The notes beneath the pieces were generated by a model. The model was not told where the DNA came from. It did no database searches and saw only the letters and a list, made by a program, of their open reading frames with translations. A stretch of DNA of 63,844 nucleotides, filler included, from Basidiobolus ranarum (lineage: Eukaryota), in NCBI GenBank assembly GCA_040143965.1. It is 35 parts of 35 records of this genome, joined end to end, with 100 filler letters (N's around TTAATTAATTAA, not from the genome) between each part and the next. Parts side by side here need not be neighbours in the genome. Positions count along the whole stretch, not along the records: positions 43,904 to 45,626 come from JASJQH010004471.1; positions 45,727 to 47,449 come from JASJQH010004472.1; 33 more parts are not named here. One strand, given 5' to 3'. A program made the position numbers and the translations under genes. Each line of letters begins with the position of its first letter. Position 1 is the stretch's first letter. Positions 7,335 to 49,271 of the stretch are shown piece after piece.

Positions 7335-8240
7335 CATATATTCAGGTATCTCAGAGGAACTGTAGATCTAGTTCTGGAATGGTATGCCACTCCTGATGCA
7401 CATAATTTTGAAGGCTACAGTGATGCAGACTGGGGAAGAAACCTTGATGATATAAGATCAACAACTGGGTACACTTTTCTCCTTGGTAATGGAGCCATAA
7501 CTTGGAATAGTCAGAAGCAACCAACCATAGGACTTTCCACTACAGAAGCAGAGTATATAGCTACCTCAACTGAACACAAGAAGCTATATAGTTAAGGAAT
7601 TTATTTACAGACTTAGGGAACATGCAAAAATGTGCAATTACAGTATTTGAAGGTAAACAAGTTGTATTTCATTAGTTAAAAACCCTACATATCATGCTAG
7701 AACAAAACATATAGATATTAGGCATCATTTTGTTAGAGAAGCAATAGAGAATGATATAATTGAACTTGTCTATTCCCTGCTGAAGAAATGATTGCTGACA
7801 TCTTAAACAAACCTTGAGCCAAAGCACAATGTGACATATTAAAATATAAGTTAGGTTCAAGAGAAATGCATAAGATTTAGTTGAGTGGCAATGTTGAAGT
7901 TAGATAATTAGCAACTCTTTATTCAGTAGTTTGTTTAATCATATTCTGATTGTTTAGTACTCAATTCTGTCATTGAAAAATGTGTGTTTATTGTTCTAAT
8001 TGATAGATATATCAGTCAGATCATTTTACCAATTTTCAATACTTTTCAAAACTTCTCCAAATCACCTCAAATTTTGACCCATGCTTAACAGGCATGTTTG
8101 CTGTGTTCTAAGCATGTCCAATAGTCCTATTTCATGGTAAATATAAATAGGACATATTCAATTCAATAAAACTCAAGTGTCTAATTCATAAGTCTAAAGC
8201 TTGTTCAAAACACTTCCAAATCCCCTATACAGTTTTAGCA
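7335..8240 (+). mobile_element. Copia family E 3' end: RNase H, polypurine tract and 3' LTR (7892-8240)
   Basis: YSDADWGRNLDDIRSTTGYTF..GAITWNSQKQ..STTEAEY. TTGAGTGGCAA precedes TGTTGAAG. LTR copies at 38530-38880, 42081-42260, 43082-43435 and 56730-57081. Confidence 0.9.
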
Positions 8241-45470: not shown

Positions 45471-45728
45471 GCTGTAGTGTTGGAAATATTCCAATCATAT
45501 CTTGCACATAATAAGCAGGAAAAATATTATCTATTGCTATCTTAAAATATTTTACAGATCAAGAAAAAGAACAAGAAAGATCAATCGCTCATTGTCACTT
45601 CAGTACCTGACTGATTACAGCTATTCNNNNNNNNNNNNNNNNNNNNNNNNNNNNNNNNNNNNNNNNNNNNTTAATTAATTAANNNNNNNNNNNNNNNNNN
45701 NNNNNNNNNNNNNNNNNNNNNNNNNNGT

Positions 45729-45929
45729 GGTCGCGGTGGAAGAGGCCGGGGACGTGGTCGCTTTGGAAGAGGTCGTGGTCGCTTTGGCCGTGGCCGGTTT
45801 GGCGGACGTGGAAGATTTGGTCATTTTGGTGGTCGTGGTTTTGGTAGATTTGGCAGATTCGGGAGATTTGGCTATGGTGGATATGGATGGAATGAAGATT
45901 GTGGTGGAGATGACTGTGGAAGCTGTTAG
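45729..45929 (+). CDS. C-terminus of a Gly/Arg/Phe-rich secreted precursor (upstream tandem copy)
   Basis: GRGGRGRGRGRFGRGRGRFG...GRFGYGGYGWNEDCGGDDCGSC*. Nearly identical in DNA to 47321-47449. Confidence 0.85.
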   Translation, partial: GRGGRGRGRGRFGRGRGRFGRGRFGGRGRFGHFGGRGFGRFGRFGRFGYGGYGWNEDCGGDDCGSC

Positions 45930-46806
45930 CTGATTTGTACCGAAAAACTGGGGACCTTGAACGATCCTCCGGAATCTCTTTATACCTTACTTTCACACCT
46001 GTAGTTTACTATTTCTTTTGGTAAATTGAATAAAATACTTTCATATACGACTAAATACTATCCTAATGAATCGTTTTAGTTTCAACTGATATGTTATTTC
46101 ACTAGTAGAACTCTAACTGAGCGGAATTAATTATTTGCTAAGATCCTGTTATAAATTAGTAGATCCTTCATAGGAGAAATAATGCTTGTCGGTCCCCAAG
46201 TGGTATACCATTTTGAGAAGTCACAAAATATATCTTGTTAATTCACCGCATAGGGCGTAAGTTGCTATGGAGGCAACAGGGATGTATGAACATTCGCTGA
46301 CAAGAGCTGAATTATAAGTAATGTTAGCAAGTATTTGAACTTACTAGTAAAGGTGAAGTCATCTCTTCATTTCGGGTGAGAAATATGTTCCCAATTTAGC
46401 AACGGCACAACTCTCACTAAGTGAATAAACAGGCTAATATTAGTTTTTTACTAGTATTGGCACTTCATCTTATGGAGGCATATTGAGCAAAATTAACCAC
46501 CGCCTATGTTATCATTTATTAACCTTTATAAATATGCTTCAAACTATATGGCCCTGTGGTTTAGGCACACCAACGTACTAGTATGTAAAGATGAATTGAT
46601 GTTTTCTATCCAATGTAGCCCTCCTCCATATTTTAAACTCACATTTATATGAAAAGAGCGAACATTTAACCCTGATAAGTTATTACAAATTAACTGCGTC
46701 TTTTCTATACTAAAATCTAATTTTGAATGTATAAAAGGACCGGATATTATGTTGATTTTACACAGCTTCGATTAGCTTCTCAACAATCCAGCAATCATAT
46801 CAAAAG

Positions 46807-47449
46807 ATGTATCTTAAAACTACTCTTGTCAGCGCTATATTGTTAGCCTCTCTAACTAATGGAGCCGACACTAAGCCAAGCGCTCCTTCTGTCCTTATGG
46901 TTGAATCAGCTGCTTCTACCATTCCAATTGGTGAGGAGATGGTAAATCCAGCTGGCACTGATTTCTTCATTCCCAACTTCATGTTGGATGAGGATATTGA
47001 ACTCACCCCCGAAGAATCCCAAATGCGCCGTATCACCCTAAAGAAAATACTATCTCGCTTGTCCAAGGCCTCTGGAGTGAAGAAGGGAAAACTCAACCCA
47101 CTCAAGGTCAAGAAAGTTGGTAAACTTGTGACAGAGATGAGTCCTGAAACAGGTGACCATGACACTAGTAACTCTGCCTCGTCTGCTGTGGATAGTGCCG
47201 AGGATAACAATATCGACTACAGTGTGGATGGTGAGGGGGACACAGATTTAGATGCTTCACCAGAAGAAACTGAGTTACGACGAGGAGGCCGTGGTGGACG
47301 TGGGCGCGGTCGTGGGGGTCGTGGTCGCGGTAGAAGAGGCCGGGGACGTGGTCGTTTTGGAAGAGGTCGTGGTCGCTTTGGTCGTGGCCGGTTTGGCGGA
47401 CGTGGAAGATTTGGTCGTTTCGGTGGTCGCGGTTGTGGTAGATTCGGCA
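46807..47449 (+). CDS. Secreted precursor with two acidic spacers ending in RR and two cationic segments, 3' truncated
   Basis: Signal-like MYLKTTLVSAILLASLTNGA, TATAAAAG at 46729, then PEESQMRR|ITLKK... and PEETELRR|GGRGG... Confidence 0.88.
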
Positions 47450-47549
47450 NNNNNNNNNNNNNNNNNNNNNNNNNNNNNNNNNNNNNNNNNNNNTTAATTA
47501 ATTAANNNNNNNNNNNNNNNNNNNNNNNNNNNNNNNNNNNNNNNNNNNN

Positions 47550-48961
47550 AATACAGCTTTCATATATAGTAATATCTGAGGGCTTATGATCCATTCCAGT
47601 ACATAGACTATTTTTATATAATTGATTCACATTATTATAGTTTAAATGACCTAAGCACTGATGCCAAGTCATCAAGTTTCCAGATGTAATTGTTGCAAAG
47701 TTATAAACAGTCTCAGTTATCAGTGCATTATCTAGATGATATAGATTCCCAATTCTTGTTCCAGTTGCTACTATCAGGTCCTTTGATTTGTATATGGTTG
47801 CTTTTCCTTGGCTGAATTTGACATCATAATATTTCTTTTCAATGGCTCCAATTGTAAAAGATTTGTTGTAAATGATTGAATATATAAGACATCTTCCAAG
47901 GTTACTGTTACACTTCTGGTTTTATTTATTTGTAAGTCAAGTGTGACCTTTCCCATTCCATATGCAACCAGTTTTTTACTTCCAGCTACAGTGATGTCCA
48001 GAGGTTCTATTTCCTTATAGTCATGCAATATGTTTCTATTGTGACACATATGATTACTTGCACCAGAATCTAGAATCCATACATTGGCAGTGTCATTTCA
48101 TGAATTACAGGTTGCCATAAGTACATAGTGTTCATTTCCTCTTATAGTGGTGTTATAAGCCTCCTTTTTCTTTGAAACCCATTTCTTCTTTGATCTGGAA
48201 TAATGTGCTATAAGTCCCAGTTTTCCACATTTGTAACATTTCACAGTGCTCCTTTGTGCTTGCCTATTTTGAGAATAAAATGCTTGTGTAGTTTTTGTTT
48301 CATCTGCAAGCTGACTTTTGTCTTTTCTTTTAAAATCTTCTTGACATAGATGAGAGATCAGATTATGCTAAGTAAGCTTATCCCCAATTGCTTCCAAAGT
48401 GAGTACAAGGGCTGAATATGTTTCAGGGAGACCATTGACTATGGTAAGAATTATATCCATTTCAGGTACTTCATAATTCATGGATTCCAGCTGTTGGGCA
48501 AGTTTCTTGAAATCATATACACATGTCATAATATCTGAATCCTCAGACATACAAGAGTTTAACAATTTTCTTTGTAGCATCATCAAGTGAGCAAGCCCTT
48601 TTTGCTCATGATGTTCCACTAGGATTTCCCATGCATTCTTGGCAGAGTCAGTATCTCTGACTAGCATAAGTTGTTGTGATCCCAGTCTTAGACATATTTC
48701 CCTAAATGCCAATCTGTCTTTTTCTTTGAAGGTTGCCCTGGCTTCTTTACATGTTAGCTTCTTTGTTTCAGTGTCCAAATCTGTACTTTCTTCTTCAGAA
48801 GTTTCTTCTTCTTCATCTGGTTGAACTACTTCCCAGACATGTTTCCCTTCAAATACAAATTGCATCTTGAATTTCCATTCATGGAAATCTTCCCCATGGA
48901 ATGTTGAAATATTAGTAATCTCCTTTTGGGAAGAAGACTCTAATTCACTTGCTGCTACCAT
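47550..48961 (-). mobile_element. Copia gag, protease and pre-integrase, decayed
   Basis: FHGEDFHEWKFKMQ..WEVV, NGLPETY, zinc knuckle KCYKCGKLG, WILDSGASNHMC and WHQCLGHLN motifs. Confidence 0.92.
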
Positions 48962-49271
48962 GATGGAGGATCTTGACAGAAAGGGGGTAGACTTTGGGTA
49001 TTAGAAGCAACTAATGATAGTATGTTTTAGTTACTTTATTCTTAAGAGTATATAGGGACTTATATAGTAAAAAGTGAATCAATTGTTTGATATCTTCAGA
49101 AGTTTGGGTAATAAGAAATGATAGATAAGTGGGGGTAATAAGACATACTTGTTATATGGCTATAGAGATATTCCTATTTAGAATATAGGGGCTATAGATA
49201 TATTGCTTTCTGTTTCTGATATATGTATCATAACTAAAGTTAACTATGATGTTGAATAAAGATTAATTATC
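48961..49271 (+). mobile_element. LTR family C
   Basis: Matches 5502-5813. Confidence 0.88.

What the first reader, a model, noticed from the sequence alone, without database searches (positions are those of the whole stretch)
45727..47449. Tandem-arrayed secreted precursor that looks built to release two different cationic peptides
Seen: after a signal-like N-terminus, two related acidic spacers each end in a dibasic site (LDEDIELTPEESQMRR and DTDLDASPEETELRR). The first is followed at 47032 by ITLKKILSRLSKASGVKKGKLNPLKVKKVGKLVT, with 11 K/R and no D/E in 34 aa. The second is followed at 47284 by a Gly-Arg-Phe repeat. The upstream copy shows this repeat ends ...GRFGYGGYGWNEDCGGDDCGSC*. The contig start (45727) recurs at 47321 with several substitutions, implying a ~1594-bp tandem unit. 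Established: Kex2 cleaves after KR/RR, and an acidic propiece masking a cationic peptide is the layout of many antimicrobial and cytolytic peptide precursors; Candida Ece1/candidalysin is a Kex2-processed fungal example. Inference: an undescribed multi-peptide antimicrobial, toxin or adhesive system. Caveat: no RR/KR site follows peptide 1, so its C-terminal release is unexplained.
Basis: partly seen in the sequence, partly recalled or inferred. Interest (0 to 1): 0.82.

Follow-up and report, generated by a model that had tools for sequence, protein, structure and literature searches.

The report
Basidiobolus secreted cationic-peptide precursor family
This small contig carries two neighbouring copies of a gene family found so far only in the fungus Basidiobolus; each copy encodes a secreted, unstructured protein in which acidic spacers ending in a conserved cleavage-like motif alternate with strongly positive peptide blocks, a layout typical of antimicrobial-peptide precursors but untested here.

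Summary
The finding covers one whole 1,723-bp contig; the window is 35 unrelated contigs joined by N linkers, so the flanks give no context. The contig holds the 3' end of one gene (45729-45929) and, 877 bp downstream, a second copy (46807-47449, open at the contig edge). The only relatives found are 16 unnamed "hypothetical" gene models in Basidiobolus ranarum and B. meristosporus. No Pfam family or fold was found, and the protein is predicted disordered.

The architecture is a signal peptide followed by two homologous acidic spacers, each ending in [ST]PEE-x-x-[LM]-RR and each followed by a cationic block. The two 9-residue motifs are the most conserved parts across subfamilies. The C-terminal payload varies: Gly-Arg-Phe, Gly-Arg-Trp, or RR-separated YDYDRY hexapeptides.

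The best reading is a kexin-processed, charge-neutralised precursor of polycationic, probably antimicrobial, peptides. Weak points:
- RR is missing at site 2 in 6 of 15 members.
- "Peptide 1" is the least conserved part, is not significantly amphipathic, and has no C-terminal release site.
- Cleavage, expression and activity are all untested.
- A tandem pair is shown, but not a longer array.

I rate it a new variant of a known kind, of moderate interest.

The parts
45729..45929 (+). 3' end of the upstream paralogue (copy A): 66 codons of the Gly-Arg-Phe tail, the acidic Cys cap ...GYGGYGWNEDCGGDDCGSC, and the stop codon at 45927-45929. The 5' part lies beyond the contig start.
   Evidence: Translation (P0002). 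tblastn shows 88-89% identity to the C-termini of B. ranarum P0003 and P0004.
45930..46806 (.). 877-bp intergenic spacer between the two head-to-tail copies. It contains AATAAA at 46029 (100 nt after the copy A stop) and TATAAA at 46730 (77 nt before the copy B ATG). GC is 34%, against 50% in the CDS.
   Evidence: No ORF longer than 48 aa lies wholly inside the spacer; one 68-aa off-frame ORF from the copy-A tail ends at 45933. The promoter and poly(A) roles are inferred from consensus only.
46807..47449 (+). Copy B coding sequence, 214 codons with no intron. It is open at the contig end; by comparison with the 223-237-aa homologues, about 15-25 codons of tail plus the Cys cap are missing.
46807..46863 (+). 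Signal peptide, aa 1-19 (MYLKTTLVSAILLASLTNG), with the likely cut after TNG.
   Evidence: Hydrophobic core and small -3/-1 residues; the same layout is seen in 11 of 11 family members examined. Helix at residues 3-17 in the AF2 model of P0004. Heuristic only; SignalP was not run.
46864..47004 (+). Acidic spacer 1, aa 20-66. Residues 1-75 together have net charge -7.
   Evidence: Homologous to spacer 2.
47005..47031 (+). Motif 1, TPEESQMRR (aa 67-75): a candidate kexin site after RR75.
   Evidence: 82% identity among close paralogues and 75% between subfamilies. RR is present in 11 of 14 members.
47032..47133 (+). Basic block 1, aa 76-109 (ITLKKILSRLSKA... then K-rich): 11 K/R and no D/E. The head (aa 76-88) is moderately conserved; the K-rich rest is the least conserved part of the protein.
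   Evidence: The AF2 helix at residues 68-88 of P0004 spans motif 1 and the head.
47134..47256 (+). Acidic spacer 2, aa 110-150.
47257..47283 (+). Motif 2, SPEETELRR (aa 151-159): a candidate kexin site after RR159.
   Evidence: 94% identity among close paralogues and 56% between subfamilies. RR follows directly in 7 of 15 members and within 3 residues in 9 of 15.
47284..47449 (+). Gly-Arg-Phe polycationic tail, aa 160-214: 21 R, no D/E, 49% Gly, 11% Phe. Contains an internal RR at aa 177-178. Truncated by the contig end.
   Evidence: TRF periods of 9-27 nt. 80% identity among close paralogues.
47321..47449 (+). Stretch that repeats the contig start (45727-45855) at an offset of 1594 bp. In the in-frame 126 nt there are 8 differences, 5 synonymous and 3 non-synonymous (pN/pS 0.24).

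Best explanation
The contig carries two head-to-tail paralogues of a family found here only in Basidiobolus. The family encodes secreted, intrinsically disordered pre-pro-proteins.

Each protein has a signal peptide followed by two homologous modules. A module is an acidic spacer of about 45-55 residues ending in [ST]PEE-x-x-[LM]-RR, followed by a cationic block. Block 1 is a short basic helix head plus a variable K/R/H-rich stretch. Block 2 is the main cargo: a 55-78-residue Gly/Arg/aromatic polycation, with an acidic Cys-containing cap in the GRF subfamily.

Proposed mechanism:
1. Signal peptidase cuts after residue 19.
2. A kexin (Kex2-like) protease cuts after RR75 and RR159 in the late Golgi.
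3. Until then the acidic spacers neutralise the polycation, so the precursor is about charge-neutral and harmless to the producer.
4. The released tail acts outside the cell as a polycationic, aromatic-rich peptide, most likely against competing microbes in the gut/dung niche.
5. The middle fragment (basic head plus acidic spacer 2) stays in one piece.

Shown: the sequence architecture, family membership, motif conservation, payload variation, charge blocks and balance, predicted disorder, and gene adjacency. Inferred: secretion, cleavage, and any biological activity.
For: - Family. All six full-length hits (45-59% identity over residues 1-160) are B. ranarum proteins. An exhaustive HMMER scan of 1.84 billion representatives returned 14 proteins at E <= 1e-3. 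Seven of them (P0006, P0009, P0010, P0012, P0013, P0016, P0019) plus the weak hit P0021 are Basidiobolus family members; the rest are repeat or RG-composition matches. Profile and second-seed searches added P0023, P0024 and P0025.
- Motifs. They are the most conserved elements: 75% and 56% identity between subfamilies, against 2-26% elsewhere.
- Spacers. The two are homologous (0 of 1000 shuffles reach the window protein's score).
- Payloads. They vary behind the same motif: GRF (window, P0003-P0009), GRW (P0013, P0019, P0023), and RR-delimited (Y/H)DYDRY hexapeptides in P0012. The last fits the published in-silico KEP criterion of three or more repeats between dibasic sites (criterion read in passages of PMC6339444).
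- Charge. The pattern is -/+/-/+ blocks. Mature full-length members carry 30-37 K+R and 26-35 D+E, net -3 to +8. Charge segregation (SCD) has z from -2.1 to -11.8 against shuffles.
- Literature, charge. Charge-neutralising anionic propieces are described for defensins and frog AMPs (passage of PMC7073735 citing Michaelson 1992).
- Literature, composition. Gly-rich cationic peptides with G/R/F composition are active AMPs in arachnids (serrulin; passages of PMC6784228).
- Literature, KEPs. B. meristosporus had the most Kex2-processed repeat proteins (43) of 1461 fungal strains surveyed (passage of PMC7329392).
- The gene looks functional: CDS GC is 50% against 34% in the intergenic spacer, there are TATAAA and AATAAA signals, and pN/pS is 0.24 between the two copies over 42 codons.
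Against: - RR is not invariant. Site 1 reads HR in P0005 and P0007 and KG in P0019. Site 2 reads RH (P0007), RG (P0009), HQ (P0021) and WG-R (P0013, P0019, P0023). PEE[TA]EL itself is more conserved than the dibasic pair, so the motif may serve something other than, or in addition to, kexin cleavage.
- [ST]PEE is also a common helix N-cap (recalled from general knowledge). AF2 places a helix across site 1 (residues 68-88, pLDDT about 60-72).
- The aliphatic residue sits at P3, whereas yeast Kex2 prefers it at P4 (recalled).
- Presence of a kexin gene in this organism was not tested.
- Basic block 1 is not significantly amphipathic and is poorly conserved.
- Family size and distribution may be underestimated. 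The word-indexed profile search scored only 8000 candidates and missed four known members.
Confidence: 0.45

Rival explanations
1. The protein is an uncleaved, secreted block polyampholyte with a material role. It stays whole, and its alternating acidic and Arg/aromatic blocks drive self-association (complex coacervation, cation-pi contacts). It would serve as an adhesive, a spore or hyphal surface coat, or an extracellular matrix component, for example the sticky tip of Basidiobolus capilliconidia. The [ST]PEE motifs would then be helix caps or interaction sites and not cleavage sites.
For: - Strong charge segregation (SCD z down to -11.8) together with near-zero net charge.
- Predicted disorder: AF2 mean pLDDT 46.6 and ESM Atlas model pLDDT 0.40.
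- 41-49% Gly and 11-16% aromatic residues in the tail.
- RR is absent at site 2 in 6 of 15 members while PEE-x-EL is kept.
- An odd number of Cys (3) in the cap could make intermolecular disulfides (inference).
- A review abstract lists glue-like, nucleic-acid-binding and antimicrobial roles for Gly-rich proteins (PMC11772090; listing and abstract start only).
- The capilliconidium adhesive is recalled from general mycology, not from a call.
Against: - RR is kept at most sites (11 of 14 and 9 of 15).
- P0012 has a tail cut into hexapeptides by RR pairs, which makes sense only with processing.
- A material role does not predict free swapping of payload chemistry (GRF, GRW, YDYDRY) behind a fixed motif.
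Confidence: 0.25
2. The protein is a precursor of signalling peptides, in the manner of pheromone-like or developmental KEPs. The released products would act on the fungus itself or on its host, not as antimicrobials.
For: - KEPs include alpha-type pheromones and developmental peptides (abstracts and passages of PMC6339444 and PMC7329392).
- The family is lineage-specific, multi-copy and tandemly duplicated.
- P0012 yields identical hexapeptides.
Against: - The main product in the window gene is a low-complexity polycation of 55 or more residues and net charge +21, unlike known receptor ligands.
- Charge balancing by the spacers points to a need to mask a harmful cation.
- Payload chemistry changes completely between paralogues.
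Confidence: 0.1
3. The tandem repeat is an assembly artefact, or the gene is a decaying pseudogene copy. The contig would then be a mis-join of paralogous reads within the low-complexity GRF-coding repeat.
For: - Both contig ends fall inside the same repetitive GRF-coding stretch, where short-read assemblers break or mis-join.
- Copy B carries an F-to-C change in the tail.
Against: - The two ends differ at 8 of 126 positions, mostly synonymous, so they are distinct functional-looking copies.
- Head-to-tail neighbours of this family recur independently in B. ranarum (K7432_018647/018648 and 009612/009613) and in B. meristosporus (K493DRAFT_357304/357305). This is judged from consecutive locus tags sharing one contig length.
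- The ORF is intact over all 214 codons.
Confidence: 0.07
4. The protein is an intracellular RGG/RG RNA-binding protein whose N-terminus only resembles a signal peptide.
For: The RG-rich tail gives composition-level matches to SmD1 and other RG tails (E 2e-4 to 1).
Against: - No RRM, KH or other RNA-binding domain, and no Pfam hit in any of the 8 family members scanned that reaches its curated cutoff; the only hits, one to P0001 and one to P0023, are far below it.
- The hydrophobic N-terminus is conserved in 11 of 11 members examined.
- The PDB matches are confined to the repeat.
Confidence: 0.03

Closest known systems
Kex2-processed repeat proteins (KEPs) of fungi (Le Marquer 2019, PMC6339444; Umemura 2020, PMC7329392)
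   Same: - ER signal peptide and dibasic RR sites that delimit peptides.
- Lineage-specific and duplicated in tandem.
- Basidiobolus is reported as the most KEP-rich fungus surveyed.
- The family member P0012 carries RR-separated hexapeptide repeats.
   Different: - The window protein has only two modules with unlike payloads, not three or more near-identical cores.
- What is conserved and repeated is the spacer plus site, not the released peptide.
- The main product is a long low-complexity polycation.
- I could not check whether any family member is in the published KEP lists, because supplements are closed. The Basidiobolus-only type S-3 is described as rich in Y and D, but my search with P0012 found no B. 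meristosporus YD-type homologue.
Charge-neutralised cationic antimicrobial-peptide precursors (alpha-defensin propeptides; frog skin AMP prepropeptides)
   Same: - Signal peptide, anionic propiece, basic processing site and a cationic C-terminal product.
- Propiece and product charges roughly cancel.
- The prepro part is conserved while the mature part is hypervariable.
   Different: - No sequence or fold relationship.
- Fungal origin.
- Two modules in one chain.
- The product is a 55-78-residue Gly/Arg/aromatic repeat, neither a folded defensin nor a short amphipathic helix.
- Activity is untested.
Glycine-rich cationic AMPs of arthropods (serrulin, acanthoscurrins, ctenidins, armadillidins)
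   Same: High Gly content with interspersed Arg and aromatic residues, for example GFGGGRGG repeats in serrulin (PMC6784228); cationic; unstructured.
   Different: - Much higher charge density here: 21 R in 55 residues, against +4 for serrulin.
- No homology was detected.
- Acidic Cys cap in place of C-terminal amidation.
- A different kingdom.
Candida albicans Ece1p / candidalysin
   Same: A fungal secreted pre-pro-protein cut by Kex2 after specific Arg residues and trimmed by Kex1, releasing non-identical peptides from one chain (abstract of PMC5784256).
   Different: - Ece1p has eight KR-bounded peptides, and its active product is a hydrophobic amphipathic helix.
- Here there are two RR sites and acidic spacers, and basic block 1 shows no significant amphipathicity.
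- No homology.

Membership tests
Kex2-processed repeat proteins (KEPs) | N-terminal ER signal peptide | tested here: met
   Heuristic only; SignalP was not available. Lys4, a hydrophobic core (Kyte-Doolittle 10-residue mean 2.59) and T-N-G before the cut. The same layout is seen in 11 of 11 members examined. AF2 helix at residues 3-17.
Kex2-processed repeat proteins (KEPs) | At least three near-identical peptide repeats separated by KR/RR/KK sites (pipeline passage of PMC6339444) | tested here: not met
   The window protein has RR at aa 74-75, 158-159 and 177-178, and the fragments between them are unlike each other. The criterion is met by paralogue P0012, which has four x-DYDRY hexapeptides between RR pairs.
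Kex2-processed repeat proteins (KEPs) | Actual cleavage by a kexin; a kexin gene present in the genome | not testable with these tools
KEX2 is reported as near-universal in fungi (passage of PMC6339444).
Charge-neutralised cationic AMP precursors | Anionic propiece(s) whose charge offsets a cationic C-terminal product, joined by a basic processing site | tested here: met
   Segment net charges in the window protein are -7 / -3 / +21. Full-length relatives have net -3 to +8 with 30-37 K+R and 26-35 D+E. RR is present at the junction in the window protein and in 9 of 15 members.
Charge-neutralised cationic AMP precursors | The released peptide kills or inhibits microbes | not testable with these tools
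   Needs synthetic or recombinant peptide assays.
   The best 11-residue window (LKKILSRLSKA) has muH 0.75, reached by 169 of 2000 shuffles. The 14- and 18-residue windows were reached by 523 and 1422 of 2000. The stretch also contains Gly and Pro.
RGG/RG RNA-binding proteins | A recognised RNA-binding domain (RRM, KH and the like), and no signal peptide | tested here: not met
   No Pfam hit reached its curated cutoff for the window protein or for 7 relatives. The only hits were Pellino_FHA to the window protein (E 0.17, 11.4 bits against a cutoff of 25) and Phosphodiest to P0023 (E 0.0022, 18.1 bits against a cutoff of 23). PDB hits are confined to RG tails. A signal-like N-terminus is present.
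Plant-type glycine-rich protein family (Pfam GRP, PF07172) | Match to the family profile above the curated cutoff | tested here: not met
   No family member matched. Only the unrelated metagenome protein P0017 matched, weakly (23.9 bits against a cutoff of 30).

The most novel reading that the evidence does not exclude
Basidiobolus has evolved a portable "mask-and-release" cassette: an acidic spacer ending in [ST]PEE-x-x-L-RR. Behind this cassette it swaps very different cationic-aromatic payloads, namely (GRF)n, (GRW)n, His/Lys-rich stretches and YDYDRY hexapeptides. Together these would form a tandemly expanding, self-neutralised arsenal of natural Arg/aromatic repeat peptides, akin to synthetic (RW)n antimicrobials, used against gut and dung microbes. 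The extended conservation of the motif beyond RR would mark a dedicated recognition step (a protease, sorting receptor or modifying enzyme) that has not been described in fungi.
Probability: 0.3. Interest if true: 0.7.

Novelty: new variant of a known kind. Interest (0 to 1): 0.5.

Why it matters
If the reading is right, this is an undescribed family of host-defence-like peptide precursors in an early-diverging fungus that lives in amphibian and reptile guts and occasionally infects people.

- It would add natural Gly-Arg-Phe and Gly-Arg-Trp repeat polycations to the known antimicrobial chemistries.
- It would show that the "anionic propiece masks a cationic peptide" design of animal AMPs arose independently in fungi.
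- It would give a short, highly conserved motif that can be used to mine further cargo.
- It is directly testable with peptidomics, kexin digestion and synthetic peptides.

If the protein is instead an uncleaved block polyampholyte, it would be a candidate fungal adhesive or coacervate protein. That would also be new, but is less well supported.

Tried and rejected
- Whole-genome context: no genome is held for this window.
- Metagenome loci: the N-terminal alignment had no usable conserved stretch. The full-length alignment matched 595 pattern sites, but none was confirmed by tblastn.
- Other family copies in the window: none outside this contig.
- Pfam: nothing for the family.
- ESM Atlas: no feature hit, and structure hits all had TM < 0.3 on a model with pLDDT 0.40.
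- AlphaFold2: mean pLDDT 46.6. Only the signal helix and a helix at residues 68-88 appeared, so I ran no fold search.
- PDB sequence search: only RG-tail composition matches.
- Link to the published Basidiobolus-only KEP type S-3 (Y- and D-rich): could not be verified. The figure and supplements were not visible, and a search seeded with the YDYDRY member P0012 found only one further B. ranarum fragment, P0025.
- Profile search with A3: capped at 8000 candidates and failed to return four known members, so it is not a complete census.
- C-terminal CGSC as a CaaX or Rab-type prenylation box: rejected, because the protein has a signal peptide and the middle residues are G/S/D.
- RF-amide-type neuropeptide reading of RFG repeats: rejected for lack of dibasic flanks. 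My recollection that fungi lack an amidating enzyme is recalled only and was not tested.
- The 2242-aa hit P0011 (E 5.8e-18 summed over 18 repeats, matching query residues 21-64): treated as a short-motif repeat artefact and not as a relative.
- Earlier findings of this scan: three look-ups returned nothing.
- Literature: searches found no paper describing this family. The only paper holding both "Basidiobolus" and "Kex2" is PMC7329392.
Full report
**What the window is.** The window is not a continuous locus. It consists of 35 contigs of 1,721-1,734 bp, sorted by size and joined by N...TTAATTAATTAA...N linkers. The finding covers exactly one contig (45727-47449, 1,723 bp, 42.5% GC against 31-42% for the others). 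The flanking sequence is therefore unrelated. The next contig is a copia-type LTR retrotransposon fragment: Retrotran_gag_2 at E 1.3e-30 and the Pol beta-barrel domain at E 6e-13.

**Checking the observation.** All quoted sequences and coordinates are correct.
- An intron-free ORF starts at 46807 and runs off the contig end (214 codons, P0001).
- The contig begins with the last 66 codons and the stop of another copy (45729-45929, P0002), ending ...GYGGYGWNEDCGGDDCGSC.
- The contig start re-occurs from 47321, an offset of 1594 bp. In the in-frame 126 nt there are 8 differences, 5 synonymous and 3 non-synonymous (pN/pS 0.24). These are two distinct copies that look constrained, not one sequence assembled twice.
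- The 877-bp spacer has AATAAA 100 nt after the first stop and TATAAA 77 nt before the second ATG. It is 34% GC against 50% in the CDS.
- The contig therefore shows two head-to-tail genes. A longer array with a fixed period is an inference.

**Relatives.**
- A word-indexed search with residues 1-160 returned six proteins, all "hypothetical protein" of Basidiobolus ranarum, 223-237 aa, 45-59% identical over 98-99% of the query region.
- An exhaustive HMMER scan of 1.84 billion cluster representatives returned 14 proteins at E <= 1e-3.
- Look-ups and sequence reading show that P0006, P0009, P0010, P0012, P0016 and P0021 are from B. ranarum, and P0013 and P0019 from B. meristosporus CBS 931.73.
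- The remaining hits are repeat or RG-composition matches: P0011, P0014, P0015, P0017, P0018 (with its cluster mate P0022) and P0020.
- A profile of N-terminal halves (A3) added P0023 (B. meristosporus) and P0024. A search seeded with P0012 added P0025.
- The profile search scored only 8000 candidates and missed four known members, so the census is incomplete.
- In total there are 16 gene models outside the window, all in Basidiobolus. None was found in the metagenome contigs. The window's organism is therefore a Basidiobolus or a close relative.
- Neighbouring pairs recur: K7432_018647/018648, K7432_009612/009613 and K493DRAFT_357304/357305. I judged this from consecutive locus tags that share one contig length.

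**Architecture.** The alignments and segment statistics give a common plan:
- a signal-like N-terminus;
- acidic spacer 1;
- motif 1, TPEE[SAG]Q[LM]RR;
- a basic block;
- acidic spacer 2;
- motif 2, [SA]PEETELRR;
- an Arg/aromatic-rich tail.

The two spacers are homologous to each other. In the window protein 0 of 1000 shuffles reach the observed local score. In eight relatives the counts are 1, 2, 4, 8, 18, 24, 91 and 159 of 1000, and in three of them the alignment spans about 45 residues. The protein is therefore an internal duplication of a "spacer + motif + cationic block" module.

Mean pairwise identity by region:

| Region | Among seven close paralogues | Close vs distant members |
|---|---|---|
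| Signal peptide | 53% | 20% |
| Spacer 1 | 45% | 17% |
| Motif 1 | 82% | 75% |
| Basic head | 60% | 21% |
| Basic rest | 23% | 9% |
| Spacer 2 | 41% | 19% |
| Motif 2 | 94% | 56% |
| Tail | 80% | 26% |
| C-terminal cap | 53% | 2% |

The two nine-residue motifs are the family signature.

**Payloads vary.**
- Behind motif 2, the window protein and P0003-P0009 carry Gly-Arg-Phe repeats. In the window protein these are 21 R, no D/E and 49% Gly over 55 residues. In most members they end in W-N-D-D-C-G-G-D-D-C-G-x-C; P0009 ends in ...DCGC.
- The B. meristosporus members carry (GRW)n.
- P0012 carries RR-Y/H-DYDRY repeated four times. This meets the published in-silico KEP criterion (three or more repeats between dibasic sites; Methods passage of PMC6339444).
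- Behind motif 1 the block is always basic but differs in sequence. Net charge over 35 residues runs from +3 to +14: K-rich here, R/K-rich in P0012, His/Lys-rich in P0013 and P0023, and R/F/P-rich in P0016.

**Charge design.** Sliding net charge alternates -/+/-/+, and - again at the cap. Mature full-length members carry 30-37 K+R and 26-35 D+E, net -3 to +8. Charge segregation (SCD) is far below shuffles (z from -2.1 to -11.8; at most 24 of 500 shuffles reach the observed value, and 0-6 for eight of the ten proteins). The acidic parts thus roughly cancel the cationic parts. This is the layout described for defensin and frog AMP precursors, where the anionic propiece neutralises the mature peptide (passage of PMC7073735 citing Michaelson et al. 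1992).

**Fold and known families.**
- No Pfam hit reached its curated cutoff for the window protein or for seven relatives. The only hits were Pellino_FHA to the window protein (E 0.17) and Phosphodiest to P0023 (E 0.0022), both well below cutoff.
- The ESM Atlas model of P0004 has pLDDT 0.40, with no feature hit and only TM < 0.3 structure rows.
- AlphaFold2 with a 13-sequence alignment gives mean pLDDT 46.6 and pTM 0.19. It predicts only two helices, residues 3-17 (signal) and 68-88.
- The PDB sequence search finds only RG-tail composition matches such as SmD1 (E 2e-4).
- The protein is therefore intrinsically disordered. It is not a known RGG RNA-binding or wall-protein family.

**Points against the simple "two Kex2-released cationic peptides" reading.**
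- (a) Dibasic conservation is incomplete. Site 1 has RR in 11 of 14 members, HR in 2 and KG in 1. Site 2 has RR directly after EL in 7 of 15 and within three residues in 9 of 15. The exceptions are RH, RG, HQ and, in all three B. meristosporus members, WG-R. PEE-x-EL is kept more strictly than RR.
- (b) The predicted helix at 68-88 runs through site 1, and [ST]PEE is a frequent helix N-cap (recalled).
- (c) Basic block 1 is not significantly amphipathic. The best 11-residue moment of 0.75 is reached by 169 of 2000 shuffles.
- (d) The K-rich half of block 1 is the least conserved region and is partly deleted in P0004 and P0008.
- (e) Block 1 has no downstream cleavage site. After cuts at both RR sites it would remain attached to acidic spacer 2 (fragment 76-159, net -3).

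The tail is therefore the credible free cationic product, and "peptide 1" probably is not one.

**Mechanism I commit to (confidence 0.45).** The protein is a secretory pre-pro-protein. Signal peptidase cuts after residue 19. A kexin cuts after RR75 and RR159, followed by carboxypeptidase trimming as in Ece1p (abstract of PMC5784256). The acidic spacers mask the polycation during transit. The Gly/Arg/aromatic tail is then released and acts on anionic microbial envelopes.

Supporting context from the literature:
- Gly-rich cationic peptides with G/R/F composition are antimicrobial in arachnids (PMC6784228, passages).
- Arg/Trp-rich short peptides are established antimicrobials (PMC11858513, listing and abstract start only).
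- B. meristosporus had the most KEPs (43) of 1461 strains surveyed (PMC7329392, passage).

Secretion, cleavage and activity are all inferred.

**Rivals.**
- An uncleaved block polyampholyte acting as adhesive, coat or coacervate (0.25). It fits the disorder, the charge blocks and the imperfect RR conservation. It does not fit the RR-chopped tail of P0012.
- A signalling-peptide precursor (0.10).
- An assembly artefact or pseudogene (0.07). The mostly synonymous differences between the copies and the recurring tandem pairs elsewhere argue against it.
- An intracellular RGG protein (0.03). The conserved signal-like N-terminus and the lack of any RNA-binding domain argue against it.

**Novelty.** Searches for Basidiobolus with "antimicrobial peptide" and "secreted", with Kex2 and with secretome or Gly/Arg-rich terms found no description of this family. 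The zygomycete secretome paper (PMC9391592, passages) does not mention it. The general kind, a kexin-type precursor with anionic masking of a cationic product, is known. What appears new is the two-module layout with a conserved spacer-plus-motif cassette and swapped Arg/aromatic repeat payloads. My verdict is a new variant of a known kind, with interest 0.5.

Noticed in passing
window 1-63844 (linkers, e.g. 45627-45726 and 47450-47549): The window is a concatenation of 35 separate contigs of 1,721-1,734 bp, sorted by length and joined by N-runs around TTAATTAATTAA. Adjacency between contigs means nothing.
   Followed up: yes
window 47550-49271, minus strand (ORFs 48368-48961 and 47774-48049): The neighbouring contig is a copia-type LTR retrotransposon fragment: Retrotran_gag_2 at E 1.3e-30 and the Pol beta-barrel domain at E 6e-13. 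An ORF at the start of the same contig (47502-47675, minus strand) reads like a gag-pre-integrase motif; that reading was not tested.
   Followed up: partly
P0022 / P0018 (unnamed metagenome proteins, weak hit): An unrelated-looking 306-aa secreted protein has the same design logic in clearer form: five acidic QMPWLEE...LEKR repeats and two Lys-Phe-Gly (KFGKG) polycationic blocks, each followed by an acidic stretch. This may be a convergent Kex2-type masked-polycation precursor in another eukaryote. Its only Pfam hit, to the TRH prohormone family, is below cutoff.
   Followed up: partly
P0012 (B. ranarum K7432_017068), residues 155-204: The tail of this family member is a run of RR-separated hexapeptides (Y/H)DYDRY. 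Umemura 2020 describes a Basidiobolus-only KEP type (S-3) as rich in Y and D. Whether they are the same could not be checked: supplements are closed, and no B. meristosporus YD-type homologue was found.
   Followed up: partly
P0001 residues 21-64 vs P0011 (2242 aa): The start of spacer 1 (TKPSAPS.V..VE.A.ST) resembles the start of an 18-times-repeated unit of about 100 aa in a very long protein of unknown origin (E 5.8e-18 summed over the repeats). I treated it as a short-motif coincidence amplified by repetition.
   Followed up: no
window 46800-47210, minus strand: A 136-aa antisense ORF overlaps the gene. It has no Pfam match and is most likely a by-product of the biased composition of the sense strand.
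   Followed up: partly
family C-termini (e.g. window 45888-45926): The GRF subfamily ends in an acidic cap with three cysteines, C-x4-C-x2-C (WN[DE]DCGGDDCG[SD]C). P0009 ends in DCGC instead, and the GRW and YDYDRY members lack a cap. The odd Cys count suggests intermolecular disulfide or metal binding; the role is unexplained.
   Followed up: no
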